DNA from: a virus
Taxonomy: Duplodnaviria; Caudoviricetes
Strand: one strand, 5' to 3'
Virus record (IMG/VR): IMGVR_UViG_3300047557_000938
Coordinates: 1-53,480 of that record
DNA: 53,480 nucleotides
The notes under the pieces are model-generated. The model did not search any database, had not been told where the DNA came from, and saw only the letters and a program-made list of their open reading frames with translations. The position numbers and the translations under genes are program-made. Below are positions 7,172 to 33,014 of this stretch, piece after piece (position 1 is the first letter of the stretch; every line of letters starts with the position of its first letter).

Positions 7172-7226
7172 TTGCCAAGAGGGCCCCCCAGGCGTGATCC
7201 TTGTTTCAAGAGCCCGAGGGGGGCTC
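7172..7226 (+). promoter_or_regulatory. Island promoter P2 with GAGGG-loop hairpin
   Basis: TTGCCA-N18-GATCCT; GAGCCC-GAGGG-GGGCTC (7210-7226); AAAWCGGGCA boxes upstream. Confidence 0.7.
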
Positions 7227-7242
7227 AGAGGGAGGCAGTCAC

Positions 7243-17628: not shown

Positions 17629-17637
17629 GGAAATAAC

Positions 17638-18855: not shown

Positions 18856-19091
18856 TCGGGCTTGATCTGCAGCGCATCGTCGGTGATTTCAAGACGCCCC
18901 CGGCGACTCTGCGTTTACGGTTCGGTGAGGTTGTGTCGGTTCAGTCAGGGTCAATCACAATCACGGTGGCTGGCTCGAGCGTGGAGATTAGCGGCGTCCG
19001 TTACCTCGACTCATACACACCCACCACCTCGGATGTGGTGGCTCTTCTCACGGATGGCCTGGACTTGCTTGTGCTTGGCGCGATCGCGTGA
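18852..19091 (+). CDS. Small tail-tip protein
   Basis: RYLDSYTPT..DVVALL..GLDLLVLG; ATGA overlap. Confidence 0.65.
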   Translation: MIGLDLQRIVGDFKTPPATLRLRFGEVVSVQSGSITITVAGSSVEISGVRYLDSYTPTTSDVVALLTDGLDLLVLGAIA

Positions 19092-19123
19092 CGGTAGACT
19101 AGACTCACGATTAGGAGGAACCC

Positions 19124-19288
19124 ATGCCTGTAACCCCTACATACAGTCTGCCGTATCCGCAGGATTCTGATCCCGTGGATGTGGCGGGGGATATTGAGGC
19201 CCTAGCGTTGGCCGTGGACACGGCTATCGCTACGGGCGGCGGCGGCTCGGGTGGCCTCCAGAACACTTTTCTTCTGATGGGAGCATGA
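19124..19288 (+). CDS. Fibre module B gene 1 (54 aa, not in ORF track)
   Basis: TAGACT at 19095, AGGAGG RBS; MPVTPTYSLPYPQDSD...FLLMGA. Confidence 0.7.
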   Translation: MPVTPTYSLPYPQDSDPVDVAGDIEALALAVDTAIATGGGGSGGLQNTFLLMGA

Positions 19289-19289
19289 C

Positions 19290-19628
19290 GTGGCTGAAAC
19301 TGTGAAGGTTCTTGGGCAGATCTCTGGGGGTGCTGCCGCGTCTACATATTCCGTGCTTTACGCCTGCCCGACCGCGACGACTGCGGTTGTGTCCACTCTC
19401 GCGGTGTGCAATACGGCCTCGACGGCGGCGACGTATCGTGTAGCGATCTCGACGGCTTCAGCAGCCCCAGCGGTGAAGGAGTTTCTCGTATTTGGGGCGA
19501 CCGTCGGCGCCAACGACACCGTTTTTCTCACGCTTGGCGCGACACTCACAGCGACTGAGAAGTTCCTGAACGTGTCCTCGTCTGCATCGACTGTTTCGTT
19601 CTCAGCGTTCGGAGTGGAGATCGCGTAG
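19290..19628 (+). CDS. Fibre module B gene 2
   Basis: Paralog of 16400-16732. Confidence 0.75.
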   Translation: MAETVKVLGQISGGAAASTYSVLYACPTATTAVVSTLAVCNTASTAATYRVAISTASAAPAVKEFLVFGATVGANDTVFLTLGATLTATEKFLNVSSSASTVSFSAFGVEIA

Positions 19629-20494
19629 TGGCGATCAAAGATGCAACAGAACTTGGGCTGACTTCTATTATCGCGCCCCGTTCTTTGTTGAGGGCGAGCA
19701 CAAATCCCCCCGCCGTAGTCTCGAACGCTTTCACCGGAACGTACACGGATGCGAATGGCGTGCGGTGGGGATACGTGGAGTTCACGTCAAGTTCGACCCT
19801 GACAGTCACGACGGCGGGTGTATGTGACTACATCGTGGTAGGCGGTGGAGGCGGCGGTGGTGCCGGTTTGCTTGGCTCTAACTCCGGTGGCGGCGGTGCT
19901 GGCGGTGGTGCTCACGTAGCAGTGACATCTGGCTATTTGGATGCAGGTACGTACACGGTGACGATTGGCGCTGGCGGCACTGCTGGGAACGGGCAGAACC
20001 CCGGCAGCATACCGACACGCGGGAATCCGACTCGCCTTGGGCAGGTCGTCGCTATCGGTGGAGGACGCGGGGGTGTCAACCTAGCGGTAACCGGTGGTGA
20101 CGGCGGCGGCGGCGGCGGCGGATATTCAGTCAACCTGAGTGTGAACGCTGGCGGATCGTCATTGTCTTTCGGTGGGGATGGTGCCTCATCTGGTGGCGTA
20201 GATTCACCCGGCGGTGGTGGCGGTGGTAGTTCTGCCAGCGCGTCTGTTCGTAACGGCGGAGCAGGAAACAGTTCTTCAATCACCGGGTCTTCTGTTGGGC
20301 GAGGTGGCGGCGGGGGCGCAGGCTGCATAGGAGGCTCAGCAGGAACAGCAACGGATGGTGGCGGTGCGGGAGGTTTGGGAGCGGCGGGGACGGCGGGGAC
20401 CGCAAACCGTGGTGGTGGTGGCGGTGGCTCTGGTGGTGGTAACGCTGGTGGCAACGGCGGGTCTGGCGTAGTAGTCATCCGAGTGAGGATCTAA
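19628..20494 (+). CDS. Glycine-rich tail fibre / receptor-binding protein B
   Basis: DYIVVGGGGGGG...GGSGVVVIR. Confidence 0.8.
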   Translation: MAIKDATELGLTSIIAPRSLLRASTNPPAVVSNAFTGTYTDANGVRWGYVEFTSSSTLTVTTAGVCDYIVVGGGGGGGAGLLGSNSGGGGAGGGAHVAVTSGYLDAGTYTVTIGAGGTAGNGQNPGSIPTRGNPTRLGQVVAIGGGRGGVNLAVTGGDGGGGGGGYSVNLSVNAGGSSLSFGGDGASSGGVDSPGGGGGGSSASASVRNGGAGNSSSITGSSVGRGGGGGAGCIGGSAGTATDGGGAGGLGAAGTAGTANRGGGGGGSGGGNAGGNGGSGVVVIRVRI

Positions 20495-20751: not shown

Positions 20752-21414
20752 GTGAGGGTTGCTCTTATCACCGCGTGTTACGGGTCTTACGATCCTGTTC
20801 GGGAACTGCCTGAGGGCGTGGGCTTCGACGAGGCGATCTGTGTCACGGATGATGCGAGTCTAGTAACAGAGTCTTGGCGGGTCGTGGTGGAGCCCCGTGA
20901 CGAGCATCCGAGGTTGGCGGCGAAGCGTCCGAAGATGATGCCGTGGTTGTTCACGGACTGCGATGCGGCGATATGGTTGGATGCCTCGTTTGAAGTGACG
21001 TCTCGGCAGTTCGGTGTGTGGGCGCGCGGGCATCTGGAGCGGAACGATTTCATTGTGTGGACTCACCCTGAGGGTAGATTCGGGATCGAGCAGGAAGCGC
21101 CTGTCTGCTGGGATTGGCCCAAGTACAAGGACTTCGATATGCGGGGGCAACTAGCGGCGTACATGGCTGATGGGATGCCGGAGCGTTGGGGACTGTTCGC
21201 GTGCGGCATGATCGGATGGGTATTCAACGATGCCACGAGGGCTCTTGGTGAGGCTTGGTATCGGGAGAATGTTGAGTGGAGTATCCAGGATCAGATAAGT
21301 CTGCCTTATCTCTTGTGGCGGGAGGGTAAGAAGTTCGGGGTGTGGACCGCGAACGAGTATCAGAACCCGTATCTGCGGCTTAGATGGGATGAGCGACCGA
21401 ATCCTCAGTTGTAG
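20752..21414 (+). CDS. DUF616-like glycosyltransferase
   Basis: TACYGSYD, CVTD, IWLDAS, HP.R, QDQISLPYLLW. Confidence 0.75.
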   Translation: MRVALITACYGSYDPVRELPEGVGFDEAICVTDDASLVTESWRVVVEPRDEHPRLAAKRPKMMPWLFTDCDAAIWLDASFEVTSRQFGVWARGHLERNDFIVWTHPEGRFGIEQEAPVCWDWPKYKDFDMRGQLAAYMADGMPERWGLFACGMIGWVFNDATRALGEAWYRENVEWSIQDQISLPYLLWREGKKFGVWTANEYQNPYLRLRWDERPNPQL

Positions 21415-22097
21415 CGTTGCGCTCCTTCTTGTCGACCAAGATTAGGCCATAGTTCCTCGTCCCGCATGGCGTGACCCCAGAAATGTGCCGCGACCGTTTC
21501 CTCGAAAATAACAGGTTGTTGGTTGGGCATGAACGGGTTGCAGTAGCGGGACGTCCACACTTCGACGTGATCAAACTGTTCTTTCTTGACTGCGGTGAGT
21601 AGTTTCGGGCCGGTCACCCAGTCCATGCTTCGCCCCTCGGCGCGATGTACCGACTCTGGGATTGCTTCAATAACAGCGGTCATGAGTGGGTGTTGAGGGA
21701 CCGCTGCCATGAAGGCGTTGGAGATTAGCCACCCATCTACTTCGTAGGCCAGGAGGGCTTCGCGGTCACAGAAGTCGGTCGGCAGGGCGCGTATCGGTTT
21801 CATGTCGCAGTTGAGGTAGAGGCCGCCTTCGTTGTAAAGGATCTCGTAGGCTGCGATGTCGGCTTGCGTGACTTGGATCATGGTCGCTTCCTTAGCGTCA
21901 CCTCGCGCCGGTGTCCATGTGACCCCACAGGAATCGAACTCGGCTTGATTCTGCAGAGGCGGAAGATCTTCGTATCCCCAGTCGCGTAGTTCCCAGCCCG
22001 GGTTGAGGGCTATCCATTCCTCACCGAACCGCCGATACAAGTCCGGCATGGGTCGGGGGCCGAACCAGATGCGGTGCATCAGTTTGGGGATCGCCAC
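21405..22097 (-). CDS. GT32 (OCH1-like, DXD-type) glycosyltransferase
   Basis: IPKLMHRIWFG, ADIAAYEILYNEGGLYLNCD, NAFMAA...HP, TGPKLLT; AAGGAG RBS before GTG 22097. Confidence 0.85.
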   Translation of the reverse strand: MAIPKLMHRIWFGPRPMPDLYRRFGEEWIALNPGWELRDWGYEDLPPLQNQAEFDSCGVTWTPARGDAKEATMIQVTQADIAAYEILYNEGGLYLNCDMKPIRALPTDFCDREALLAYEVDGWLISNAFMAAVPQHPLMTAVIEAIPESVHRAEGRSMDWVTGPKLLTAVKKEQFDHVEVWTSRYCNPFMPNQQPVIFEETVAAHFWGHAMRDEELWPNLGRQEGAQRYN

Positions 22098-23092
22098 GTC
22101 ACTCCTTCGTTGTCCTTGAACCACTGGACCGTTTCGCTGATTCCTTGGTCGAGGGGCGTGAAACTGTTCGGATCGATGCCGATCACTTTTAGGGTGCTTG
22201 TGTCGGCTGACACGACGGTGCCGAGTTGCTTGACGGTGCGCCTGACGTCGATGGGCCGGAGTTCTGGGGCGGCGGATAGTACGGCCTTGACAACGGCGTC
22301 GACGGCTTGTGGGGTGGCGAGTGGGCCTCCCTCGGGTTCGCCGGGGCGCATCGGGACGGCTTCGATGATTGCCCCACCGACGGCGCTAGACACGGCTTGT
22401 GCGACTTCGAGGACCGTGTGTGGCATGGGGTTGCCTACGTCAATGGGGTAGTCGGGAATGATGCCTTGATTGGCGGCTTCGAGTGCGGCGACGAAGCAGC
22501 GAGCCACGTCTCGAACGTGGACGGAGTCGCTGTATTGAACACCGCCGCCGTAGAGCCTCATGGGATCTCCTGAGAGGGCTGAGCAGACAAACGATGGAAC
22601 GATTTTGCGGACCTTAGAGGGCCCGTAGGGGGCCGGGGCTGACTGGCGTGGCCCGTAGGCGTTCATGGGCCGTACGGCCACGATTCGGGCTCCTCGGTCC
22701 TCCCTGTACATGCCGACGAACTGCTCCCCCGTCGTTTTCGTTATGCAGTAGGTGCCTCGGCCGATACCTGAGTTCCCTACGGCGGCGAACACGCAGGGCA
22801 GGTCGTAGCGGGCTGCCGCCTCGAACACGTTGAGGGTGCCGACGATGTTGGTTTCTGCTGCGGGGCCGGGGTTGTCGATGGTCTCGGCGGTCCCGAGGAC
22901 TGCCGCGAGGTGGATGATGCCGTCGACGTGTGCGGCGAGTTCTTGCACGATTGTGGTGTCCCGTACGTCTCCGTAGAGGCCCCAGCCTTTACCGCGATGG
23001 TCGAGGACGAGTGCCTCGTGGCCTTTGGCTTCGAGTTCCGCTAGTACCCACGATCCGATGAAGCCGTGTCCACCGGTTACGCCAATCTTCAT
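22079..23092 (-). CDS. NAD-dependent nucleotide-sugar epimerase/dehydratase
   Basis: VTGGHGFIG, HLAA, YCITK (YxxxK), RPMNAYGP, VHVRDVA. Confidence 0.9.
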   Translation of the reverse strand: MKIGVTGGHGFIGSWVLAELEAKGHEALVLDHRGKGWGLYGDVRDTTIVQELAAHVDGIIHLAAVLGTAETIDNPGPAAETNIVGTLNVFEAAARYDLPCVFAAVGNSGIGRGTYCITKTTGEQFVGMYREDRGARIVAVRPMNAYGPRQSAPAPYGPSKVRKIVPSFVCSALSGDPMRLYGGGVQYSDSVHVRDVARCFVAALEAANQGIIPDYPIDVGNPMPHTVLEVAQAVSSAVGGAIIEAVPMRPGEPEGGPLATPQAVDAVVKAVLSAAPELRPIDVRRTVKQLGTVVSADTSTLKVIGIDPNSFTPLDQGISETVQWFKDNEGVTWRSPN

Positions 23093-23733
23093 TTGAGACT
23101 CCTCACGACTGCTCGCCAATATCCTTCATCAACGCCCAGGCTTATGTTGTGATCGGCGAGACGATAAATGTAGTCGGCTTGCTGACTCGCTGTGAAGCGG
23201 GCTTGTTGTTTGGCGCAGCCGATCCAGAACGCCCAGTCCTCGAAGAGCATGTCGCGGAAGGGGTTCCCGTGCCAGAGCCACTTGCGAAATGGGGAGCCAG
23301 AGAAGACAAGATTGTTCTCCACATCAAGAACGTCTTGATGCCTGAAGTCGGAGGGCAGAAGGTTGTAGGCGCCTTGCGGGCTATTGACTTGGATGCCGAA
23401 CATGAGTATGTCGGCGTCTTCGGGTAGATGATTGAAGGCGTGGGGTAGAAGTAGATCGTCCACGTCCATCTTGCATATCCACTCGGTGTCGCAGGCTTGG
23501 ATAGCCTCATTGACGAGAACTTGCGGGTGATGGCTGAACGTTGTGGTGGAGCGGATTACGGTTCCGCTGCACGGCATGTCTTTCACCATACTAAGAAGGT
23601 CACTTGTTATCAGTTCGGTGACTATCCCATAACAGTCGGGTGCGGTTTCAAGCCGAGCGGCGGCCTCGATCCATTCCGGCAGAAAGGCTCTGTATGTGTC
23701 GCCGTGGACGACGGTGACGAGCCCGATGCTCAC
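23089..23733 (-). CDS. GT-A (GT2-like) glycosyltransferase
   Basis: NEAIQACDTEWICKMDVDD and FEDWAFW motifs. Confidence 0.75.
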   Translation of the reverse strand: MSIGLVTVVHGDTYRAFLPEWIEAAARLETAPDCYGIVTELITSDLLSMVKDMPCSGTVIRSTTTFSHHPQVLVNEAIQACDTEWICKMDVDDLLLPHAFNHLPEDADILMFGIQVNSPQGAYNLLPSDFRHQDVLDVENNLVFSGSPFRKWLWHGNPFRDMLFEDWAFWIGCAKQQARFTASQQADYIYRLADHNISLGVDEGYWRAVVRSLK

Positions 23734-24008
23734 AATGCGTCCCAGGTCTTTCTGTCAATCACGCCCGTGATCTTCAACCCAGCCTGGTCTTGAAACTTGC
23801 GAACAGCCAGGGTGACTTCACGGTCGTATCGCCCGTCGAGTGGTCCCTCGTAGTGCCCGTGCTTCATGAGTTTCGATTGAGCCCACATAACCAACACTCC
23901 ACGATCACCTGTGTCTAGGGGATGACGGAATGGATAGTGATCTGAAACCGTAGGGGTGCTTGTCTCTTCTTCGACTAGGTTCATTCGTTTACGCGTGCGG
24001 GTCGCCAT
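23730..24008 (-). CDS. Stand-alone peptidoglycan-binding domain protein (PG_binding_1-like)
   Basis: GDRGVLV..AQSKL..HGHYEGPLDGRY...AVRKFQ...GLKITGVIDRKTW. Confidence 0.85.
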   Translation of the reverse strand: MATRTRKRMNLVEEETSTPTVSDHYPFRHPLDTGDRGVLVMWAQSKLMKHGHYEGPLDGRYDREVTLAVRKFQDQAGLKITGVIDRKTWDAL

Positions 24009-24014
24009 GCTTGC

Positions 24015-24021
24015 TATCCTA
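24015..24021. promoter_or_regulatory. Overlapping divergent -10 elements (TATCCT on +, TAGGAT on -)
   Basis: Only divergent intergenic gap; minus-strand -10 lies 7 nt before ATG 24008. Confidence 0.5.
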
Positions 24022-24040
24022 GGACACAAGGAGGCTCCCC

Positions 24041-24253
24041 ATGGATAACAAATGGCTCGTTGTTGCTAAGTCCTACTTGAAAGTCTTTCTAGCAGTCATC
24101 CTGGGATTGTTCCTGGCTGACGGCGCGGATGTGTTCGCCGTAGATGCTACGGATCTTCGCACCTGGTTAGCGGCGGGCCTAGCCTCCGTTCTGCCGCTAG
24201 TCATCACGGCCCTCGATCCGAGTGATCGCCGTTTCGGGACGAATAGCGAGTGA
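24041..24253 (+). CDS. Holin
   Basis: 70 aa, two hydrophobic segments, LDPSDRRFG tail; upstream of endolysin. Confidence 0.75.
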   Translation: MDNKWLVVAKSYLKVFLAVILGLFLADGADVFAVDATDLRTWLAAGLASVLPLVITALDPSDRRFGTNSE

Positions 24254-24570
24254 ACCCGGCTGATTGGTTGCTCCTAGCGGGCGGCATCGCCGCAGCCGTA
24301 ACGGGGGTCGGCATTTTCTTTCACCGTATTTACAAGATCGCCAAGAGGATCGACTCGGCTCTTGGGGTGGATAAGGAAGGCAGAACTATCTCGGAGCGTC
24401 TGCAAAGGGTGGAGCATCAACTGTTCCCAAACGGGGGAACTAGTCTTACAGATAAGATCAACAGGATCGAGCAAGATCAGCGGGAGATGAAAGGCCAAAT
24501 GGCTGCCTTTGAACGCATCTTGAACATGCTACTCAGGAGGGAAAGTGACGGAGCCGGAAGAGCATCCTGA
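24250..24570 (+). CDS. Lysis-cassette membrane protein
   Basis: N-terminal TM helix and PNGGTSL.DKI.RIE coiled-coil motif. Confidence 0.7.
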   Translation: MNPADWLLLAGGIAAAVTGVGIFFHRIYKIAKRIDSALGVDKEGRTISERLQRVEHQLFPNGGTSLTDKINRIEQDQREMKGQMAAFERILNMLLRRESDGAGRAS

Positions 24571-24618
24571 CTTTGAGGGTGATCCCGCTGTCGGGGTCTT
24601 TGAGATTGAGGATGAGTC

Positions 24619-25224
24619 GTGAGTTACGCCGACGATTTGAAGGCCGCCCTGGCAGAGTGGGCTCCCAATCGGGTCGTGTATGTCAAGGGCTGGCGCACTA
24701 GGAACACGGGCGAGTGGCGGTCAAAGCGTCCTCGCATGACCATCATGCATCACACGGCTGGCGCAGCAACCGAGTCCACGAACCCCACGAACAAGGGCAA
24801 TCGGAAGGGCGCTAACGCTGGCGTCGTGACCTACTGTGTTGCGAAGCACAACTCGGTGCCGTACTGCAACGCCGTCGTGGATCGGGACGGAACGATTTAC
24901 ATCTTGGCTGCTGGTCCCGTGTGGCACGCTGGTGTCGGGTCTTTCAAGGGCACACGATGGGTTTTGTGGAGGATTCCCGACAACAGTGCGAACGGATACA
25001 CATTCGGAGTCGAAGTCGTCAGCAAAGGCAGAAAGCCTGACTTCACGGCGAAACAAATAGAGTCGATCGACTTGTTGAACTGCGCTGTGAAGAAGGCATC
25101 CAAGTGGATCGGTTTCAAGTATCGGATCGCTAACCACAAGGACTGGACGACGAGGAAGATCGACACTCGTTACCCCTGGGAGACGTTTGTTGAGGGAGCC
25201 AAGGCAGCGTGGCGTCAAAAGTGA
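24619..25224 (+). CDS. Endolysin, N-acetylmuramoyl-L-alanine amidase (Amidase_2), no wall-binding domain
   Basis: HHTAG, VWHAG, GVEV, HKDW..RKID zinc-amidase motifs. Confidence 0.9.
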   Translation: MSYADDLKAALAEWAPNRVVYVKGWRTRNTGEWRSKRPRMTIMHHTAGAATESTNPTNKGNRKGANAGVVTYCVAKHNSVPYCNAVVDRDGTIYILAAGPVWHAGVGSFKGTRWVLWRIPDNSANGYTFGVEVVSKGRKPDFTAKQIESIDLLNCAVKKASKWIGFKYRIANHKDWTTRKIDTRYPWETFVEGAKAAWRQK

Positions 25225-25457
25225 CGCTGGCTGATGCCCTTGCCAGCGTGCAGCCAACTCACATCGGCGTGAAGTGTTACACCTGTTCCGCGGTGTCATC
25301 TATGACTAAGGAAGATAGGGAAGTCTTCGAGGAAGCCTTGACGCGGCGGGACATTACGAACCCCATGATGGTGCGCGCGTTGAAGGCTGCAGGCTATGAG
25401 GTGTCGAAAGGTTCTCTCGCGCGTCATCGGCGCGGGGAGTGCATGCCGCTAGAATAG
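25209..25457 (+). CDS. Small Cys/His DNA-binding-like protein
   Basis: CYTC...SLARHRRGEC. Confidence 0.6.
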   Translation: MASKVTLADALASVQPTHIGVKCYTCSAVSSMTKEDREVFEEALTRRDITNPMMVRALKAAGYEVSKGSLARHRRGECMPLE

Positions 25458-25460
25458 GGG

Positions 25461-25530
25461 CGGGTCGAGCCTTGCTCCCCACGGCCCCGGCGGGAACCCC
25501 TCACCTGCCGGGGCCGCCCATTTCTCCCCC
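25461..25530 (+). terminator. Terminator-like hairpin with AACCCCTCA loop; candidate small RNA
   Basis: 13-bp stem 25482-25494/25504-25516 then pyrimidine tract; TAGAAT at 25450-25455. Confidence 0.6.
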
Positions 25531-25578
25531 AAGAACTAGGGGCAAATCGGGCATTTCGGGCCAATGTTGTGAATGTTG

Positions 25579-25634
25579 TTGCCAAGTCCGAGCGGCAGCC
25601 GTGACCCTTGTTCTATGAGGCCGAGGGGGCCTCA
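25579..25634 (+). promoter_or_regulatory. Island promoter P3 with GAGGG-loop hairpin
   Basis: TTGCCA-N18-GACCCT; TGAGGCC-GAGGG-GGCCTCA (25616-25634); AAATCGGGCA at 25544. Confidence 0.7.
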
Positions 25635-25650
25635 GGAAGCGAGGGGCAAC

Positions 25651-25878
25651 ATGAAGTGGACCAAGCCTACGCAGTACGTGAACGGGCGCATCAAGGCTGA
25701 TCGGTCAAATGTGGCTGATCGTGGCGACGGCACCTACTTCGTCATCAACTGGGTTGATCGCGGAAAGCGCGCGTACCAACTCATCATCAAGACCTACGGC
25801 GACCCAGGTTTCGAAGAACTCGGTCGCTTCCCATCAGTCCGTGACGCTAAGGCATTCGCAGAAGGGTACGCATCATGA
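25651..25878 (+). CDS. Hypothetical protein
   Basis: GAGGGG RBS; first gene after P3. Confidence 0.65.
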   Translation: MKWTKPTQYVNGRIKADRSNVADRGDGTYFVINWVDRGKRAYQLIIKTYGDPGFEELGRFPSVRDAKAFAEGYAS

Positions 25879-26087
25879 GGGAGTTCATCACCACCGAGTT
25901 CGAGTTCAGTCACGGCAAGAAGCCACGGGGGCTCGGCTACTGGTACTTCAAGCCAGCAGATAACGCATGGCCCGGCGATTCGATGCCCACCGGCGGATTC
26001 TTCTGGCACTTCGGCACCTACGCCGAGGCCAAGAAGGCAGTCAGCGCGGCGTGGCCCGCAGTCACCTACTGGAAGGTCCTTCCGTAG
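25875..26087 (+). CDS. Hypothetical protein
   Basis: SHGKKPRG.GYWYF...GTYAEAKK; ATGA overlap. Confidence 0.7.
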   Translation: MREFITTEFEFSHGKKPRGLGYWYFKPADNAWPGDSMPTGGFFWHFGTYAEAKKAVSAAWPAVTYWKVLP

Positions 26088-26148
26088 TCGAAACGAGGCT
26101 TCGGCCTCGTCCAGCGGAACCCGCCACCCGCTGCTGAAGAGACAGGCG
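26087..26148 (+). ncRNA. Type II hammerhead ribozyme
   Basis: GTC-GAAA-CGAGGC(TTCG)GCCTCG-TC^-CAGCGG(loop)CCGCTG-CTGAAGA-GAC; loop CGCC can pair with 3' GGCG. Confidence 0.9.
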
Positions 26149-26166
26149 ACCTAGAGGGGAACGATT

Positions 26167-26385
26167 GTGGACGAGCAGGGCATGACGATGAATGATCTGA
26201 ACGAACTCACTCGCGAGGATCTGATCATGATCGACACGGCGCTGATGATCCTGAGCCGTGCCGAGCACAAGTTCAATGGCACAACGTGGGAGTGCGACAA
26301 GGCGACTCGTGCGTTGAATCGGATCGCAGTACGGCACGGGCTTGTGCCGGTTGATGGTTACGCGGCGCAGTTGGCGGCGTCGTGA
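26167..26385 (+). CDS. Hypothetical protein
   Basis: GAGGGG RBS downstream of the ribozyme. Confidence 0.6.
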   Translation: MDEQGMTMNDLNELTREDLIMIDTALMILSRAEHKFNGTTWECDKATRALNRIAVRHGLVPVDGYAAQLAAS

Positions 26386-26708
26386 GCCGTCTTGCTCAAC
26401 CCATGGACTTTGTGGCCCATTGGCTCCCGAAAGGGAGACCAATGGTTCACAGTCAAACAATCGAGCAGATTGGACGCTACACGTTCGCTGCAATCTCTGG
26501 GGCTCGTTACGGGACTACTGAGTCAAGCCTCATTATGCCGAGCGGGCAGGGGCACTACGTAACGGTCACGTTAGAGGCAAGCGACACCTACACGGTTCGA
26601 CACCTCTTTGTTCGGGCTGGCAAAGTTACAGTCAAACAAGAGTGGGAGGACGTGTATTGCGATCAGTTGTCCGACGTTGCCTATGAGGCTTCGCTCTGGC
26701 GCATGTAA
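26382..26708 (+). CDS. Hypothetical phage protein
   Basis: EQIG...AISGAR...SDTYTV...DVYCDQL; GTGA overlap. Confidence 0.7.
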   Translation: MSRLAQPMDFVAHWLPKGRPMVHSQTIEQIGRYTFAAISGARYGTTESSLIMPSGQGHYVTVTLEASDTYTVRHLFVRAGKVTVKQEWEDVYCDQLSDVAYEASLWRM

Positions 26709-26709
26709 A

Positions 26710-26731
26710 TGTCCGACCCTGCATGTAACGT
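26710..26731 (+). promoter_or_regulatory. RecA-NDp/PafBC-like promoter
   Basis: TGTCCG-N10-TAACGT versus consensus TGTCGG-N10-TA-N3-T; upstream of Gam/ERF genes. Confidence 0.45.
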
Positions 26732-26756
26732 GCGGGGCGAGAGAAAGGTGAGGGGA

Positions 26757-26987
26757 ATGGCACAAGCGATTGTGTTTCAGGTGGACGCGGGTCCGGCTGG
26801 AATGTATTGGGATGTGAATCTGTCGGATGGGCAAACATGGGAAGTGTCTGACGACATACGGACCGACATTAGTGACTTGTCGATCTCGGGTTACGAGGTT
26901 GTAGTTCGTTCGTACGAGTGGTACTTGAAGAACGCTTGTTCTGAATGTGGCTGCGAAGAACCACACACACATAATGAGGTGAGTTGA
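26757..26987 (+). CDS. Hypothetical protein with C-terminal CSECGC..H
   Basis: GAGGGG RBS before ATG 26757. Confidence 0.55.
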   Translation: MAQAIVFQVDAGPAGMYWDVNLSDGQTWEVSDDIRTDISDLSISGYEVVVRSYEWYLKNACSECGCEEPHTHNEVS

Positions 26988-27148
26988 ATGAACAACTCAA
27001 CTCTCCAAGCAATGATGCAGTTCATGCGACTACTGCCAGACGAATCGTTGAGCCTGGTCGCCGATGCTCGTTACACGTTCGAGCCCCGTGATTACAAAGA
27101 CAAAGTGATCCTGCAACTAGCGGCAGGTGAGTGGGAATGGAGGCAGGA

Positions 27149-27697
27149 ATGTCGGACTATGAAGTGACAGACGAGTTCAGGGCCGACACCTTGGAGAAGG
27201 CTAGTTGGGCGATGCGTAAGTATCGACGGCTGGCCCAGAAGAAGGCTCAGTACGAGAGTCTGGCGGCTGCGGAGCGAGTGAGGATTGACTCGTGGCTGGA
27301 ACGCATGATCGCGAGCGTGGAGTCTCAGATGGAGTTCTTTGGGGCTCACTTGGAGGCTTACGCCATGAGCCAGCGAGCGCAGGGAAACAAGAGTGTGGAA
27401 CTGCCGGATGGGACTATCAAGACTCGAGCCACGGGCGCGACGTTCGATGTAGACAAAACTGTGTTTTTGGAATGGGCTCAGGAGCAGAAGAGGGACGACC
27501 TCATGCGGGTGTCGTTCGCACCTGACATGACCGCTATCAAGACAGCGGTGCTTGTCGATGAAGGGATAGTGGTTGATCCTGCCTCCGGCGAGGTCGTTCC
27601 AGGGCTCTCGCCTGTGCCAGAGAAAGTGACCGTGAGCATCGCGCCCGACCTGGATGCGATAGATCTAGAGGGAATCGAGGGAATCGAAGATGAGTGA
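27149..27697 (+). CDS. gam: Mu Gam-like host-nuclease inhibitor
   Basis: ASWAMRK coiled coil, KSVELPDGTIKTR, GEVVPG motifs. Confidence 0.7.
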   Translation: MSDYEVTDEFRADTLEKASWAMRKYRRLAQKKAQYESLAAAERVRIDSWLERMIASVESQMEFFGAHLEAYAMSQRAQGNKSVELPDGTIKTRATGATFDVDKTVFLEWAQEQKRDDLMRVSFAPDMTAIKTAVLVDEGIVVDPASGEVVPGLSPVPEKVTVSIAPDLDAIDLEGIEGIEDE

Positions 27698-28340
27698 TAA
27701 GCCGCCTGTTCATGAGGCTCTCGCGTCGGTGATGGCTGACGTGAAGGCTGTTCGTAAGGAGGAACGCAACCAGGCTCAAGGGTTCAACTTTCGCGGCATC
27801 GACGCGGTGTTGAACGCTGTTGGGCCAGCGTTGAGGGCTCACGGAGTGATCGTGCTGCCGACGGTGTTGAAGCACACCTACGGGACGGTGACTTCAACGA
27901 AGGGCACCGTTATGGGTCATGTGATTGTGAAGGTGCGCTACGAGTTCATCGGGCCAGCCGGGGACTCCATCACTTGTACGACTGTGGGTGAGTCGATGGA
28001 TACGGGCGACAAGGCGACGTCGAAGGCTATGTCCGTCGCTCTCCGCACGGCCCTATTGCAGTCGTTGGCTCTGCCCACGGACGAGCCTGATCCCGATCTG
28101 GATGTGTACGAGAGGCAGACACCGACCGTGGTGAGCAAGCCGGGTAGGAAGAAGACCTACGCTGATTCGGCTAAGGTGCCGGAGTTGGTGGAGTCTTTCA
28201 CCGGGGTTGAGACGGAGCGAGACTTGGCTGACGTGGCGCAGCAGATTCCGCACCTTGATCTCTCTGATGCCGAGAAGGAACTTCTTCGGAATTCCTACAT
28301 GGCTGCGAAACAAAGATTAGAGGCAAGTGTCGGGGTGTAA
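27690..28340 (+). CDS. erf: ERF-family ssDNA annealing protein
   Basis: FNFRGIDAV, GESMDTGDKATSKAMSVA.R...LPTDE.DPD. Confidence 0.85.
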   Translation: MSDKPPVHEALASVMADVKAVRKEERNQAQGFNFRGIDAVLNAVGPALRAHGVIVLPTVLKHTYGTVTSTKGTVMGHVIVKVRYEFIGPAGDSITCTTVGESMDTGDKATSKAMSVALRTALLQSLALPTDEPDPDLDVYERQTPTVVSKPGRKKTYADSAKVPELVESFTGVETERDLADVAQQIPHLDLSDAEKELLRNSYMAAKQRLEASVGV

Positions 28341-28426
28341 CTGAGCACCTTGGTCTGATTGGTCGTGCGACGGCCCTAGGAGTTGTATGAGGCTCCTAGG
28401 GCTTCGCCATGAGGGAAGGGTCGAAC

Positions 28427-29164
28427 ATGAGTATCCAGAGAGTGCCTGAGGTTCCATTCGCGCAGATCGCGAACAGCGCACTACGAGACACCCGCCTGTC
28501 GTTCAAGGCTCGCGGTGTCCTTGCGCTCGTTCTGTCGAACGTGGGTGAGTGGGAGGCGACCCGAACGTGGCTCATGAGCCAGTCGGAGAAGGATGGTCGC
28601 CACGCCATACAAGAAGCCTTGAATGAACTAACCGCCCTGGGTTACAGGCGAGTAGAGAAAGTGCTGATAAACGGCTCCATCACCTCTGTCGTCGAGTGGA
28701 GGCATGAACCATCGGAGCCGATTTCTCGACGGACAGGAAACCTGACGGTCGGGAAACCTGACGGTCAGGAAACCGGGCCGCTAATAGAACACCATCTTCC
28801 AGAACACCATCAACCGAATACCACTAGAGAGATCGTTCTCAAGCCTGTGGATGTTGTCGCGCTTGAAGGCTTTCTTGAGTTTTGGAGGACATATCCACGC
28901 AAAGAGGGCAAAGGCCACGCACGGCAAGCCTGGATGAAAGCCATACGGAAGCAAGACCCCACCGTTATCATTGAGGGGGCGGCGCGTTACCGCGACGACT
29001 TGAATCGGGTGAAGGAGTTCACGGCGATGCCCGCTACATGGCTAAACGGGGAGAGGTGGGAAGACGAGCCGTTGCCTGGGCGCGTTGAAGACCGACGGCT
29101 GGACGAGGCGCAGCAGATGATCGCTCGAGCGGCGGCGAGGGACGCCGACAGAGAGGGGTTCTAG
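28427..29164 (+). CDS. Replication initiator (lambda O-like organisation)
   Basis: N-terminal wHTH (DTRLSFKARG), repeat-containing linker, C-terminal FWRTYPRKEGK...PATWLNGERWED. Confidence 0.8.
   Translation: MSIQRVPEVPFAQIANSALRDTRLSFKARGVLALVLSNVGEWEATRTWLMSQSEKDGRHAIQEALNELTALGYRRVEKVLINGSITSVVEWRHEPSEPISRRTGNLTVGKPDGQETGPLIEHHLPEHHQPNTTREIVLKPVDVVALEGFLEFWRTYPRKEGKGHARQAWMKAIRKQDPTVIIEGAARYRDDLNRVKEFTAMPATWLNGERWEDEPLPGRVEDRRLDEAQQMIARAAARDADREGF
28728..28825 (+). repeat. Probable replication origin iterons inside the initiator gene
   Basis: 3 x 16-bp GACGGWCRGGAAACCK (28728-28775) then AGAACACCATC repeats at 15-bp spacing. Confidence 0.65.
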
Positions 29165-29166
29165 TC

Positions 29167-29490
29167 ATGAAGGAAGCCGACGTTGCAACGCTTCTTGCGC
29201 TGGCGAATGGGCATGATCAACGGCACGGCATGAGCGATGTGAAGGTGCGAGCCTGGTTTGTCCTGTTCGAGCAGGAGGCCGCCGACATGGAACCCGTGTG
29301 GGCCCAGAAGAAGATCAACGAGCACTACGCCCGCACCACAGACATGCTCATGCCCGCGCATCTGGTCACCGCATGGAAACAGCACAAGCGATACGAACGG
29401 AATCGTTTGAGTGTCACGGCTGGACGAGGTGTGCCGATGCCGGACTATGTGAAGGCTGAGATGCAGCGCCTACTATCTAGGCGTGATTGA
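29167..29490 (+). CDS. Putative helicase loader/inhibitor
   Basis: Position after initiator; helical VRAW...EHY...MPAHL pattern. Confidence 0.5.
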   Translation: MKEADVATLLALANGHDQRHGMSDVKVRAWFVLFEQEAADMEPVWAQKKINEHYARTTDMLMPAHLVTAWKQHKRYERNRLSVTAGRGVPMPDYVKAEMQRLLSRRD

Positions 29491-29672
29491 ATGCGGTTCC
29501 TGCGGTGAACCTTTCTCGCCTGTTGCGAGCAGATGGTTGTGCCCTAACTGCGGCTACAAGGAGTCCTGTTGTGAGGGTGAACCCTTGTGAGCACCTGGCG
29601 ATGCTCCGTGTGTGGAGCGACAGGTGATGGTGGAGTGAAAGCCTTCTACGCCCACTACAACAAGGCACACTC

Positions 29673-30011
29673 GTGAAGATGCCACCGAAGACCGCCGAAC
29701 TCGTCAAAGCCCGAGCAGGCGGTCGTTGCGAACTATGTAACACCAGCACCTCGTATCGGTGGAGCATCCATCACCGCAAGCCACGCGGCATGGGTGGCAG
29801 CAAAGACCCCGCGATCCACAGCCCCGCCAACTTGATCTACTTGTGCGGCTCCGGCACCGAAGGCTGCCACGGCAAAGTCGAGTCGAATCGCGCCGAAGCG
29901 TTGGAGTTTGGGCTACTGATCTACCGCAACGACGACCCTACATTGACACCTGTGAGCCTATGGCGCGGCACAGTTCTGTTGGATGACGAGGGCGGCTGGC
30001 AAACCTGTTAG
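29673..30011 (+). CDS. HNH-like endonuclease
   Basis: GRCELC, HHRKPRGMGG, NLIYLC..GCHG. Confidence 0.75.
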   Translation: MKMPPKTAELVKARAGGRCELCNTSTSYRWSIHHRKPRGMGGSKDPAIHSPANLIYLCGSGTEGCHGKVESNRAEALEFGLLIYRNDDPTLTPVSLWRGTVLLDDEGGWQTC

Positions 30012-30610: not shown

Positions 30611-31412
30611 CGCACTCGAGATTGAAATGATCCCATTGAAAGACGTTCGACTGGACCCGAAGAATGCACGCTCCCACTCCGAGCGAAACCTAGAGGCGAT
30701 AATGGAGTCGCTGCGCCAGTTCGGTCAGCGCAAGCCCATCGTGGTCACTCACGACGGGATGGTCGTCGCCGGCAACGGGACCGTGGAAGCGGCACAAAAT
30801 CTAGGCTGGACTCAAATCTCCGCCACGCGTATCCCCGACGACTGGTCGCGGCAGCAGATCACCGCCTACGCGATTGCAGACAATCGAACTGCTGAACTCG
30901 CATCATGGGACTCCGAGATCCTCGTTCCAGCACTCGCCGAACTTGAAGCGGCTGGAATGTTGGAGTGGACAGGCTTCACTCAATACGAGTTGCAGAACTG
31001 GGACTCGCTGGCTCTGCGAGGAGGCCTGCCAGGTGGCGACTCCAGGTTAGACAACGACGAAGAGATTGACCCTGACGAGGAGCAAGGATCACTACTCGCA
31101 CTTGCGGATGTGACAGTTGCAGAGCCGAAACATGAAGTAGCGCAGCATGACATATTCATGCTCACTATGCCGAAGCATGATGTGACGCATGTCTTGATCG
31201 TTGCAAACGTGATGAAGGAATGGACCCTCTGGGCTGACTACTTACAAGGCGAAGCGATCTTCGTTCCCTTCCCTGATCCATTCATCACTGGAACGGACGT
31301 GGCTCGCAAACAGCCTCTTGTTTTAGTGCAACCCGATTACTACATGGCGGGTCATGTCCTCGACAAGCACGCCGCCTTCTATGGTGAAGAGCACGTAACG
31401 AGGATGCCGTGA
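30603..31412 (+). CDS. ParB/Srx-like N-terminal domain protein heading the DNA-modification operon
   Basis: PKNARSH, FGQRKPIVV, AGNG..EAA, IADNRTAELASWD. Confidence 0.8.
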   Translation: MSDALEIEMIPLKDVRLDPKNARSHSERNLEAIMESLRQFGQRKPIVVTHDGMVVAGNGTVEAAQNLGWTQISATRIPDDWSRQQITAYAIADNRTAELASWDSEILVPALAELEAAGMLEWTGFTQYELQNWDSLALRGGLPGGDSRLDNDEEIDPDEEQGSLLALADVTVAEPKHEVAQHDIFMLTMPKHDVTHVLIVANVMKEWTLWADYLQGEAIFVPFPDPFITGTDVARKQPLVLVQPDYYMAGHVLDKHAAFYGEEHVTRMP

Positions 31413-32308
31413 AGAAGAAGAACACAGGAGGCGGGACGTTCGACAAGAACGAGCAACCCGTCTACTTCATCGCGTCCGGCCCCACGCAACTAGAGATCGC
31501 GCAAGAGATCACCGACCATCTGCTTGTTGCCGTAAACGAGTTGGAATCCCCAAAAGCAATCGAACAGTTCGACAAGATGCTCGACACGGGAGCAAAGGTG
31601 TTTCTGGACTCCGGCATCTTCAACTTGACCAACAGGCACATGCGTGCCCACGGCATCACCATGGACGAAGCCCTAGCACTCGCGCCAGACGAGATTGACG
31701 GCTTCGACAAACTGTGGGACAACTACTGCGAGATTGTGACCCGATTCGCCAATCGCGTGTGGGGCTTCATCGAACTTGACCAAGGTGGAGCGATCAACAA
31801 ACGCAAGACTCGAGCGCGTATCGAAAAAGAAACAGGGTTGATTCCTGTTCCCGTCTATCATCCACTCAACGACGGCTGGGACTACTTCAATGAACTCGCA
31901 AAAGAATATGATCGGATCTGTTGCGGCAACGTCGTGCAGGCGAATCAAGCCACACGCAAGCGGTTGATTACAACCTTGTATGAACGGCAAAGACAGGATC
32001 ATCCCGATACTTGGATTCATTTCTTGGGCTTCACTCCGAACGAGTGGGTTCATGCGGCGCCGTTCTACGGCTCTTGCGACTCGTCCTCCTGGCTCGTGAA
32101 TGTCCGATGGTCCAGGGCGCATCGAAGTCAAGGAGCGTGCAAGCGGGTCGGTGGGTTCGTGTACGGCATGAGATACAAGTACGGCAGCGACTACACGGAC
32201 GACAACGGTTACGAGAGGGCTATCCGTTTCGCGGGAGCGCAAGGCGGCTGGTTCTTGGAGAAGTCTTGGAAGGCATACATGAACGAGAGGGAAGAGGTGT
32301 TCGGATGA
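31409..32308 (+). CDS. dpdA: DpdA-like DNA guanine transglycosylase (TGT fold)
   Basis: FLDSG.F, ELD, PVYH, IHFLG, CDSSSW motifs; coupled to Que genes. Confidence 0.7.
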   Translation: MKKKNTGGGTFDKNEQPVYFIASGPTQLEIAQEITDHLLVAVNELESPKAIEQFDKMLDTGAKVFLDSGIFNLTNRHMRAHGITMDEALALAPDEIDGFDKLWDNYCEIVTRFANRVWGFIELDQGGAINKRKTRARIEKETGLIPVPVYHPLNDGWDYFNELAKEYDRICCGNVVQANQATRKRLITTLYERQRQDHPDTWIHFLGFTPNEWVHAAPFYGSCDSSSWLVNVRWSRAHRSQGACKRVGGFVYGMRYKYGSDYTDDNGYERAIRFAGAQGGWFLEKSWKAYMNEREEVFG

Positions 32309-32649
32309 CGGAAGTGTGGTGCACCTTCGAGAAGGTCGGGTTCCATCATTGGCCCGACGCGGCGGACATTCTTCCCCGTCGAGCGTATCTGTCGGATCGT
32401 CACAGGCATCTGTTCAAGATGCGGATCACCGTGCCCGTACTGCACGACGACCGCGACATTGAGTTTCATGAACTGCGCGACTACGCCGAGGAGTGGTGGC
32501 CCGAAGGCGGCGAGATGGGTTCCATGAGTTGCGAGGCAATAGCGCAATCGCTCGGGGCTCACATCATGGACGGGTTCCACATTCCGTGGGTTGAAGTTGA
32601 AGTGTCAGAAGACGGCGAGTGTGGAGCAAGCGTTAGGATGGAAACATGA
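32305..32649 (+). CDS. dpdL: QueD-like T-fold protein, predicted CDG decarboxylase (DpdL-like)
   Basis: GFHHWP, LSDRHRHLF (LxxxHRHxF), DRDIEF, SCE, VSEDGE.G; ATGA overlap start. Confidence 0.7.
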   Translation: MTEVWCTFEKVGFHHWPDAADILPRRAYLSDRHRHLFKMRITVPVLHDDRDIEFHELRDYAEEWWPEGGEMGSMSCEAIAQSLGAHIMDGFHIPWVEVEVSEDGECGASVRMET

Positions 32650-33014
32650 CGTTCAGGATCAGTAAAGAGTTCTCATTCTCGTCATCGCATCAACTCCACG
32701 GGCTTAGAGAAGGCCACCCATGCGGTCGCGTTCACGGTCACAACTACGTCGTGAAGGTCACCCTGTCGGGTGAGAAGTTGAACGGCAGCGGGTTCCTGTT
32801 GGACTACAACGACTTGAAGCCTTTCGGTCACTGGCTGGACGACGAGTTGGATCATCGCCACTTGAACGACGTTCTCAACTTTCAACCCTCAGCCGAGAAC
32901 ATGGCGCAATACTTCGCCTTCATGGTGGAGAACACGGTGAACGTTCCCGAGGGAGTGAACATCAGCGTGTCCGTGTCGGAGACTCCTAAGACCTGGGCGA
33001 CCTGGGAGAACTGA
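32646..33014 (+). CDS. queD: 6-carboxy-5,6,7,8-tetrahydropterin synthase
   Basis: CGRVHGHNY, LDHRHLND, PSAEN, VSETP. Confidence 0.92.
   Translation: MTFRISKEFSFSSSHQLHGLREGHPCGRVHGHNYVVKVTLSGEKLNGSGFLLDYNDLKPFGHWLDDELDHRHLNDVLNFQPSAENMAQYFAFMVENTVNVPEGVNISVSVSETPKTWATWEN

What the first reader, a model, noticed from the sequence alone, without database searches (positions are those of the whole stretch)
26087..26148. Type II hammerhead ribozyme inside an early operon
Seen: complete core with GAAA 26090-26093, stem III CGAGGC-TTCG-GCCTCG, cleavage triplet GTC 26109-26111, stem I CAGCGG/CCGCTG, CTGAAGA 26134-26140, short stem II GAC/GTC, and a possible pseudoknot CGCC 26122-26125 with GGCG 26145-26148. 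It begins at the upstream stop codon and ends just before the next RBS. Established: such ribozymes occur in phages but their role is unclear. Inference: cleavage detaches downstream genes from the GAGGG leader and gives them a 5'-OH end.
Basis: partly seen in the sequence, partly recalled or inferred. Interest (0 to 1): 0.8.

Follow-up and report, generated by a model that had tools for sequence, protein, structure and literature searches.

The report
Type II hammerhead ribozyme between phage genes
A complete self-cleaving hammerhead RNA motif of a well-known phage type sits between two small genes of this phage, where it most likely cuts a long messenger RNA into separate pieces; it is a genuine but ordinary example of its kind.

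Summary
Window 26086-26152 (+) is a complete type II hammerhead. It has the GAAA and CUGAAGA core, cleavage site C26111, a 6-bp stem III, a 6-bp stem I and a 3-bp open stem II. A 4-bp pseudoknot joins loop I to the 3' tail.

- **Rfam:** RF02276 scores it 33.6 bits, below the gathering score of 37. Whole-window scans miss it.
- **Independent model:** a covariance model built from 75 other phage type II hammerheads, window excluded, scores it 63.7 bits, E 1.1e-14. It is the only copy in the genome.
- **Chance:** shuffled genomes give 0.03 loose descriptor hits each.
- **Pseudoknot:** it covaries across the family.
- **Geometry:** the stop codon overlaps stem II by one base and the next start lies 23 nt after stem II. 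Both are the family's modal or median values.
- **Relatives:** 9 of 16 capsid-related phage records carry 1-8 such ribozymes, mostly among small ORFs upstream of recombination and replication genes.

Most likely role (inferred): intercistronic mRNA processing that leaves both products ending in a hairpin. "Early operon" is not shown. This is a new member of a known kind (Perreault et al. 2011). No cleavage or expression data exist for it.

The parts
25875..26087 (+). Upstream ORF (70 aa) whose TAG stop (26085-26087) overlaps stem II by one base
   Evidence: ORF list. GC3 is 0.85, typical of real genes here. 18 relatives in viral contigs. No Pfam or PHROG family.
26087..26089 (+). Stem II, 5'-side strand GUC (pairs with 26141-26143); C26089 is position 11.1
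   Evidence: Sequence. Stem II pairs are 100% paired in 78 aligned ribozymes, and 2 of 3 pairs show double changes.
26090..26093 (+). Core GAAA (G12 A13 A14 A15.1); A26093 pairs with U26110
   Evidence: Sequence. Invariant in alignments A1 and A2.
26094..26109 (+). Stem III hairpin, 6 bp with UUCG loop; becomes the 3' end of the upstream product
   Evidence: formed in the MFE fold. Covariation in family alignment.
26110..26111 (+). U16.1 and C17; predicted cleavage after C26111
   Evidence: Position in the Rfam and R1 alignments. H17 is C in 182 of 188 family sites. Cleavage itself not tested.
26112..26133 (+). Stem I hairpin, 6 bp with 10-nt loop (26118-26127); becomes the 5' end of the downstream product
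   Evidence: The 6 bp/10 nt/3 bp architecture is the commonest in the family, 41 of 188.
26122..26125 (+). Pseudoknot strand CGCC in loop I (pairs with 26145-26148)
   Evidence: 4 Watson-Crick pairs in the family's usual register. Pseudoknot columns covary.
26134..26140 (+). Core CUGAAGA (C3 to A9, N7 = A)
   Evidence: Sequence. Invariant except N7.
26141..26143 (+). Stem II, 3'-side strand GAC; G26141 is position 10.1
26145..26148 (+). Pseudoknot strand GGCG in the 3' tail, one A after stem II
26154..26159 (+). Shine-Dalgarno-like GAGGGG of the downstream gene
   Evidence: Sequence. An SD-like 4-mer lies within 40 nt after stem II in 158 of 188 family sites.
26167..26385 (+). Downstream ORF (72 aa, GTG start 23 nt after stem II)
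   Evidence: GC2 0.41 and GC3 0.75. No family or relatives found.
25524..25653 (+). Conserved leader-like element (one of three copies) ending in GAGGGG-CAAC-ATG; possible start of the transcription unit that holds the ribozyme
   Evidence: Repeat families D4 and D5. Three-way alignment. Fold z -3.7. Promoter function not shown.

Best explanation
Window 26086-26152 (+) encodes a functional-looking type II hammerhead self-cleaving ribozyme of the pseudoknot subclass. It lies in the 79-nt spacer between two small co-oriented phage genes. The transcription unit continues into Gam-like, Erf-like and replication-initiator genes.

Shown by computation:
- The motif, its fit to the family, and covariation of all helices including the pseudoknot.
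- Its stereotyped placement, with the stop codon inside stem II and the ribosome-binding site right after the pseudoknot.
- The recurrence of 1-8 such ribozymes in capsid-related phages.

Inferred:
- Once transcribed, the RNA folds, stems I and II are docked by the CGCC/GGCG pseudoknot, and it cleaves itself after C26111.
- The upstream product keeps its stop codon and ends in the stem III hairpin with a 2',3'-cyclic phosphate.
- The downstream product starts with a 5'-OH directly at the stem I hairpin and keeps an intact ribosome-binding site.
- Only the 3-bp stem II holds the two products together, so they separate.
- The ribozyme therefore acts as intercistronic punctuation. It uncouples the two upstream genes, and any 5' leader control, from the downstream recombination/replication genes. 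Each piece then has its own structured end, and hence its own stability and translation.
For: - **Anatomy:** complete at the stated coordinates.
- **Rfam:** RF02276 aligns full length, 33.6 bits, E 3e-5 on 351 nt.
- **Independent model:** R1, built from 75 phage ribozymes without the window, gives 63.7 bits, E 1.1e-14. No second true copy in the window.
- **Shuffles:** 0.03 loose and 0 strict hits per genome.
- **Pseudoknot:** 115 of 188 non-redundant sites have a run of 4 or more Watson-Crick pairs between loop I and the tail, against 13.8% when tails are swapped. In alignment A1, 93% of cells are paired against 67% shuffled and 30-40% slid. All 5 pseudoknot pairs show double changes.
- **Placement:** 161 of 188 sites have an upstream open frame of 40 or more codons ending within -25..+6 of the ribozyme (random positions 22%). 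The commonest offset is +1 (50 sites), as in the window. The median distance to the start codon is 23 nt, as in the window.
- **Coding:** GC3 supports the two flanking + strand ORFs and not the antisense ORF.
- **Lineage:** 9 of 16 long capsid-related records have 1-8 matches. Most lie among small ORFs upstream of the Cas4-like exonuclease and replication initiator, or upstream of Gam.
- **Literature (passages read):** type II hammerheads with this pseudoknot are common in prophages, flank genes, and were proposed to process long phage transcripts (PMC3088659). Three type II hammerheads near phage-like genes cleave in vivo in Desulfovibrio vulgaris (PMC8782182).
Against: - No cleavage, transcript or expression data exist for this element.
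- The Rfam score is under the gathering score (33.6 against 37), and standard whole-window scans miss it.
- The MFE fold without the pseudoknot pairs G12 in an alternative helix and is no more stable than shuffles.
- The ribozyme is not conserved next to relatives of the flanking genes. There is none in 18 loci with relatives of the upstream ORF or in 2 loci with Gam relatives. None of 338 ribozyme-flanking ORFs elsewhere resembles the window's neighbours. It is therefore dispensable for any particular gene.
- The biological role of bacterial and phage hammerheads is still called elusive in a 2019 review (PMC6765202).
- The stabilising effect of a 5'-OH and terminal hairpins is recalled knowledge about bacterial RNases, not tested here.
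- The family set was seeded with a pattern copied from the window's own core and stem II, so it is biased towards look-alikes.
Confidence: 0.6

Rival explanations
1. It is a real, active hammerhead, but it does not serve mRNA punctuation. Either it is a gated switch, in which cleavage depends on whether ribosomes terminate at the stop codon embedded in stem II or on some other signal. Or it is a nearly neutral passenger motif that spreads between phages together with variable small-gene cassettes.
For: - The stop codon lies inside or within 3 nt of stem II in most family members: offsets -3..+2 account for 118 of 161. TAG spans the junction in 56 of 188.
- Copy number varies from 1 to 8 among phages whose capsid proteins are 82-88% identical.
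- Flanking genes are not conserved.
- Perreault et al. note that gene identities are not constant and that other roles are possible.
Against: - The very regular spacing to the next start codon (quartiles 18-28 nt) and the preserved catalytic core argue for selection on a role in expression.
- No signal-sensing insert is present. The stems are plain helices.
- Complementarity between upstream sequence and the ribosome-binding site is not enriched: 14.4% against 14.8% in the control.
Confidence: 0.25
2. It is a hammerhead-derived relic that no longer cleaves at a useful rate.
For: - It is a single copy, where relatives have arrays.
- The pseudoknot has 4 pairs where the family mode is 5. The fifth family pair is a C/A mismatch in the window.
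- The Rfam score is below the gathering score.
Against: - Every core position matches the consensus, and the three core-adjacent pairs are Watson-Crick.
- Stems I and III are perfect 6-bp helices.
- Sibling ribozymes in related phages score 29.8-49.3 bits with Rfam, so 33.6 is within their range.
- Perreault et al. describe pseudoknots of four or more pairs as typical.
Confidence: 0.08
3. It is a chance resemblance, or the hairpins serve as a transcription terminator rather than as a ribozyme.
For: Two GC-rich hairpins lie in an intergenic spacer. The MFE z-score is unremarkable.
Against: - E 1.1e-14 with an independent model, and 0 strict hits in 100 shuffled genomes.
- No U tract follows either hairpin, and the terminator scan lists nothing at this site.
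Confidence: 0.02
4. The ribozyme produces a circular or spliced RNA by cleavage at two sites followed by ligation.
For: Arrays of hammerheads flank single genes in relatives. Perreault et al. raised this idea.
Against: - The window has only one ribozyme, so no unit is bounded by two cleavage sites.
- Perreault et al. report that they could not detect such products.
- The only 'RNA ligase' label in the window, a PHROG hit on 44921-46609, is a XkdF-type protease domain by Pfam.
Confidence: 0.02

Closest known systems
Type II hammerhead ribozymes of bacteria, prophages and metagenomes (Rfam RF02276; Perreault et al. 2011, PMC3088659, passages read)
   Same: Same permutation, with stems I and III capped and stem II open. 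Same core, same short stem II, and the same pseudoknot between loop I and the nucleotides just after stem II. Same phage intergenic setting on the coding strand.
   Different: It scores 3.4 bits under Rfam's gathering score. It is a single copy rather than an array, and its pseudoknot has 4 rather than the modal 5 pairs. It comes from an uncultured freshwater phage genome.
The three type II hammerheads of Desulfovibrio vulgaris, shown to cleave in vivo and in vitro (cyPhyRNA-seq, PMC8782182, passages read)
   Same: Type II architecture near hypothetical and phage-like genes. [quoted passage not shown]
   Different: Those were tested experimentally and this one was not. I did not compare the sequences directly.
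Ribozyme arrays in capsid-related phage records G002, G003, G007 and G012
   Same: Same ribozyme subclass (R1 scores 60-74 bits). Same kind of location, between small ORFs upstream of recombination and replication genes. Capsid proteins are 82-88% identical to the window's.
   Different: Those records carry 5-8 copies spaced about 300-1200 nt apart, and the window carries one. The small genes around them are not homologous to the window's (one search found no matches for them).
Synthetic ribozyme insulators such as RiboJ, placed between promoter and ribosome-binding site (recalled, not checked in any call)
   Same: It works alike in principle. Self-cleavage removes upstream RNA context and leaves a hairpin-led 5'-OH mRNA with a defined 5' untranslated region.
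   Different: Those are engineered, derive from a plant satellite hammerhead of another permutation, and sit after a promoter rather than between cistrons. This is a functional analogy only.
[quoted passage not shown]
   Same: Same kind of genomic neighbourhood and the same unresolved biological role.
   Different: Unrelated folds. None was detected in the window.

Membership tests
Hammerhead ribozyme (all types) | Conserved catalytic core: CUGANGA, GAAA, and a UH cleavage dinucleotide after stem III | tested here: met
   CTGAAGA 26134-26140, GAAA 26090-26093, and U26110-C26111. All align to consensus in Rfam and R1.
Hammerhead ribozyme (all types) | Three helices around the core, with standard pairs directly next to it (10.1-11.1, 1.1-2.1, 15.1-16.1). 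This is the rejection rule quoted from Perreault et al.. | tested here: met
   G26141-C26089, C26112-G26133 and A26093-U26110 are all Watson-Crick. Stems are 6, 3 and 6 bp.
Hammerhead ribozyme, type II (RF02276) | Permutation: stems I and III closed by loops, stem II open to the flanks | tested here: met
   Order along the strand is stem II strand, GAAA, stem III hairpin, UC, stem I hairpin, CUGAAGA, stem II strand.
Hammerhead ribozyme, type II (RF02276) | Pseudoknot of four or more pairs between loop I and the nucleotides just 3' of stem II (present in the majority of type II members) | tested here: met
   CGCC 26122-26125 pairs with GGCG 26145-26148, giving 4 pairs. The tail offset is 1 and 2 nt are left in the loop, both common registers. 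The family pseudoknot covaries.
Hammerhead ribozyme, type II (RF02276) | Score at or above Rfam's curated gathering score (37 bits). This is an operational cut-off, not a biological feature. | tested here: not met
   33.6 bits, and not listed in whole-window scans. Sibling ribozymes in related phages span 29.8-49.3 bits, and only 7 of 15 descriptor sites are listed. A model built from phage members scores the window at 63.7 bits.
Hammerhead ribozyme (all types) | Site-specific self-cleavage giving 2',3'-cyclic phosphate and 5'-OH ends | not testable with these tools
Hammerhead ribozyme, types I and III | Open stem I (type I) or open stem III (type III) | tested here: not met
   Both stems are capped by loops. 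Only the type II model is reported for the site (where overlapping clan members are reduced to the best).
Intrinsic transcription terminator | GC-rich hairpin followed by a run of U | tested here: not met
   No T run follows 26109 or 26133. The terminator scan of 21000-30000 lists nothing at the site.

The most novel reading that the evidence does not exclude
The ribozyme is a translation-gated cutter. The upstream stop codon lies inside stem II, so a ribosome terminating there occupies the GAAA core and half of stem III. The ribozyme can then fold and cleave only when the upstream gene is not being read through to its stop. On this reading, the phage uses upstream translation to decide whether the recombination/replication genes stay joined to the leader-controlled 5' module or are released as an independent, hairpin-capped 5'-OH mRNA. 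The type II permutation would be favoured in phages because it alone leaves both products hairpin-capped, held together only by a 3-bp helix.
Probability: 0.12. Interest if true: 0.65.

Novelty: new member of a known kind. Interest (0 to 1): 0.28.

Why it matters
On its own, this is one more example of a ribozyme class catalogued in phages since 2011. Its main value is as correct annotation of an element that standard Rfam scanning of the genome misses.

The wider point is that the role of phage hammerheads is still unresolved. Two results here bear on it:
- **Stereotyped geometry.** The stop codon sits in stem II, the ribosome-binding site follows the pseudoknot directly, and both products end in hairpins.
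- **A natural series.** Closely related phages carry from 1 to 8 copies in the same small-ORF region.

Together these give a concrete processing model that ordinary reporter and RNA-end-mapping experiments could test.

Tried and rejected
1. **Rfam at gathering threshold** on the whole window, and Rfam at E<=1 on the whole window, listed no hammerhead. The genome search with RF02276 on the window's own record found none at E<=0.001. I read this as a filter and threshold effect, because the 351-nt scan finds it.

2. **Megablast and blastn** of 25500-26700 against the phage collection gave no match.

3. **Relatives of neighbouring genes.** None were found in viral contigs for the downstream ORFs 26167-26385 and 26382-26708. 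Relatives of the upstream ORF (18 loci) and of Gam (2 loci) carry no hammerhead. Synteny at the level of single genes therefore could not be used.

4. **Occlusion of the ribosome-binding site.** The MFE fold pairs 26077-26082 with 26154-26159. Across 188 sites such complementarity is no commoner than with swapped partners, so I rejected this as a family mechanism.

5. **Link to an RNA ligase.** The PHROG 'RNA ligase' label on 44921-46609 is a XkdF-type protease domain by Pfam. Rejected.

6. **Further copies in the window.** The R1 hit at 45702-45771 has GAAC instead of GAAA, so it is not a ribozyme. The hit at 23953-23976 (-) matches the flanks only.

7. **Promoter and terminator scans** of 21000-30000 gave nothing useful.

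8. **Conserved leader element in relatives' loci.** blastn-short found nothing. A pattern search found one hit inside a tail gene. The leader's relation to ribozyme arrays elsewhere is unknown.

9. **Sequencing runs.** No RNA holder is listed. The only holder is a DNA run that may be the source sample.

10. **Literature.** Five searches found no paper in the held library that settles the role of phage hammerheads. One search returned no papers.

**Rows dropped**
- Of 221 descriptor hits, 216 were unique sites.
- 188 remained after removing identical sequences and sites too close to a locus end.
- Alignment A1 used 77 of these plus the window. They were selected for a pseudoknot of 4 or more pairs, a 3-bp stem II, length of 66 or less, stem I of 5 or more and stem III of 4 or more pairs, and they were de-duplicated by stem I.
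- A2 dropped two more that disturbed the alignment (L079:464-540 and L134:1428-1499), and it excluded the window.
- Of 80 kept capsid-relative loci (113 found), I searched only the 16 on contigs of about 25 kb or more as whole records.

Full report
**What the window is.** The window is a complete virus record of 53,480 bases with direct terminal repeats. A 127-nt terminal repeat is visible. The gene map from PHROG and Pfam scans is as follows.
- Large terminase at 35071, portal at 41849, head morphogenesis at 43111, and major head protein at 51511.
- Wrapping round: major tail protein at 8740, tape measure at 10511, and tail proteins up to about 21.4 kb.
- A minus-strand island at 21405-24029, with glycosyltransferases, an epimerase and a peptidoglycan-binding domain.
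- A long plus-strand run from 24041. It holds an amidase endolysin (24619-25224), small ORFs, the finding, more small ORFs, Gam-like (27131), Erf-like (27690), replication initiator (28409), HNH, RusA-like, ParB-like, and a 7-deazaguanine pathway cluster (31409-34605). It then returns to the terminase.

**The observation.**
- TAG 26085-26087 ends a 70-aa ORF and supplies the first base of stem II.
- GUC 26087-89 pairs with GAC 26141-43.
- GAAA lies at 26090-93.
- Stem III is 6 bp with a UUCG loop (26094-109).
- U26110 and C26111 form the cleavage site.
- Stem I is 6 bp with a 10-nt loop (26112-133).
- CUGAAGA lies at 26134-40.
- After a single A comes GGCG 26145-48, complementary to CGCC 26122-25 in loop I.
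- GAGGGG 26154-59 and a GTG start at 26167 follow.

The two flanking plus-strand ORFs have the GC3 signature of real genes here (0.85 and 0.75). The overlapping minus-strand ORF 26062-26493 does not (0.53) and has no family.

**Is it more than chance?**
- *Rfam.* The Hammerhead_II model aligns end to end at 33.6 bits, E 3e-5 for a 351-nt scan. This is below the gathering score of 37. The site is absent from both whole-window Rfam scans and from the genome search, so by routine annotation it would be missed.
- *A comparison set.* I therefore built an independent test. A simple descriptor (core motifs plus three helices) found 221 hits in the 1.15 Mb then held. These reduce to 216 unique sites and 188 non-redundant sites with usable flanks.
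- *An independent model.* From 75 of these, with the window excluded, I built covariance model R1. With filters off over the whole window, R1 scores the site at 63.7 bits, E 1.1e-14. The next hits are a flanks-only match (19.3 bits) and a site with GAAC in place of GAAA.
- *Shuffles.* The descriptor finds 0.03 sites per shuffled genome, and none in strict form, in 100 shuffles.
- *Caveat.* The comparison set was seeded by a pattern taken from the window, so it over-represents ribozymes with the same stem II and N7.

**The pseudoknot.** Neither the pattern nor the descriptor asked for it.
- 115 of 188 sites have a Watson-Crick run of at least 4 between loop I and the ten nucleotides after stem II. 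The figure is 13.8% when tails are swapped among ribozymes.
- On an alignment of the window plus 77 sites, 93% of cells pair, against 67% in shuffles and 30-40% when partners are slid. These sites were selected for having a pseudoknot, which inflates pairing but not register. All five pseudoknot columns show changes on both sides.
- The window uses the common register and the commonest overall architecture, 6 bp/10 nt/3 bp, found in 41 of 188 sites.
- Its pseudoknot has 4 pairs where 5 is the mode.
- This matches the published description: type II hammerheads, common in bacteria and prophages, with a pseudoknot of four or more pairs between loop I and the nucleotides just downstream of stem II (PMC3088659, passages).

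**Placement.**
- In 161 of 188 sites an open frame of at least 40 codons ends within -25 to +6 of the ribozyme's first base, against 22% at random positions.
- The commonest arrangement, with 50 sites, has the stop codon overlapping stem II by one base, exactly as in the window.
- The next start codon lies a median of 23 nt after stem II (quartiles 18-28), and the window's lies at 23.
- TAG spans the junction in 56 of 188 sites.

These ribozymes are therefore compact intercistronic cassettes on the coding strand.

**Lineage.** The major head protein has 113 relatives in viral contigs.
- I searched 16 long records as wholes with R1, and 9 have 1-8 matches. These include both records that are at least 90% complete. 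The 7 without matches are 41-64% complete, so their absence says little.
- In six records the ribozymes lie among small ORFs upstream of a Cas4-like exonuclease and the replication initiator.
- In one record (G005) two lie about 1 kb upstream of a Gam homologue, as in the window.
- In two records a single ribozyme lies between the portal and capsid genes.
- Rfam lists only 7 of the 15 descriptor sites in three of these loci, at 29.8-49.3 bits. The window's 33.6 bits is therefore typical of its siblings.
- The small genes next to the ribozymes are not conserved. None of 338 flanking ORFs resembles the window's neighbours. Relatives of the window's upstream ORF and of Gam lack a nearby ribozyme.

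**How it most likely works.** The motif and its conservation are shown. The rest is inference.
- After transcription the three-way junction forms, the pseudoknot docks stems I and II, and the RNA cleaves after C26111.
- This is established hammerhead chemistry, giving a 2',3'-cyclic phosphate and a 5'-OH (PMC6765202 and PMC8782182, passages).
- The type II order has a consequence that can be read from the anatomy. The upstream product keeps its stop codon and ends in the stem III hairpin. The downstream product begins at the base of the stem I hairpin and keeps its ribosome-binding site untouched. Only the 3-bp stem II joins them.
- From recalled knowledge of bacterial RNases, both products should be protected at their new ends and free to decay and be translated independently. 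That knowledge is 5'-monophosphate sensing by RNase E and J, and hairpin blocks to exonucleases.
- This is the processing role proposed in 2011 and still regarded as unproven in 2019.
- In the window it would separate a two-gene 5' module from the recombination/replication genes.

**The 'early operon' and the 'GAGGG leader'.**
- A roughly 110-130-nt element occurs three times, at 7054-7245, 25524-25653 and 48510-48625. Each copy ends in GAGGGG, four or five bases and ATG. The 25.5-kb copy folds unusually stably, with z -3.7.
- This suggests the first gene of the unit starts at ATG 25651, not 25573. It also suggests the ribozyme lies after the second gene of a unit that begins here. A 12-bp GC hairpin at 25483-25515 sits just before the element.
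- No promoter or start site is shown.
- Because the same element precedes tail-side and head-side genes, and an endolysin lies just upstream, I cannot call the unit early.

**Verdict.**
- The element is a new member of a known kind, ordinary for a phage. Its role is unproven, as it is for the whole class.
- No expression evidence could be obtained.

Noticed in passing
window 7054-7245, 25524-25653, 48510-48625 (+): Three copies of a conserved element of roughly 110-130 nt. Each has repeated AAATCGGGCAT-like units, a TTGTTGCC box and a GC hairpin, and ends in GAGGGG plus 4-5 nt plus ATG. TTGTTGCC can pair with the GGCAAC next to the ribosome-binding site. The 25.5-kb copy folds with z -3.7. It looks like a shared promoter/leader or translational operator for three gene blocks.
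   Followed up: partly
window 25483-25515 (+): A 12-bp GC-rich hairpin lies in the 115-nt gap after ORF 25209-25457. It is terminator-like but has no U run.
   Followed up: partly
window 31409-34605 (+): A gene cluster for 7-deazaguanine synthesis and insertion: a queuine tRNA-ribosyltransferase-like gene, PTPS (QueD-like), a QueE-like radical SAM gene and GTP cyclohydrolase I. This suggests modified phage DNA.
   Followed up: no
window 21405-24029 (-): The only minus-strand island: two glycosyltransferase-like genes, a nucleotide-sugar epimerase and a small protein with a peptidoglycan-binding domain.
   Followed up: no
window 23953-23976 (-): Model R1 gives a 19.3-bit hit (E 0.0045, rough calibration) that matches only the ribozyme's two flanks joined together, with stems I and III absent. 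It lies inside the peptidoglycan-binding ORF and is probably chance.
   Followed up: no
records G001-G007, G009, G012 (loci L251-L260): Phages with capsid proteins 82-88% identical to the window's carry from 1 to 8 type II hammerheads. Two of them have one between the portal and capsid genes rather than in the small-ORF region.
   Followed up: partly
loci L019-L137: There is a second, shorter subclass of type II hammerhead with no pseudoknot. It has a 7-bp stem I, a 3-4-nt loop and a 4-bp stem II (29 + 7 of 188 sites). It is often followed by CA-rich or A-rich tails.
   Followed up: no
L138 (genome contigs): A 5.4-kb contig binned in a MAG labelled Candidatus Nanopelagicales encodes a capsid protein 85% identical to the window's. 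This is a weak hint at the host, since the contig may simply be a phage fragment.
   Followed up: no
window 16831-20442 (+): Families of GGC/GGT-rich repeats (glycine-rich, collagen-like) are shared between two tail-fibre-like genes that hit the same PHROG.
   Followed up: no
window 26086-26152: Method note: the ribozyme is found by Rfam only when a short stretch is scanned. Whole-genome scans at either threshold drop it.
   Followed up: yes
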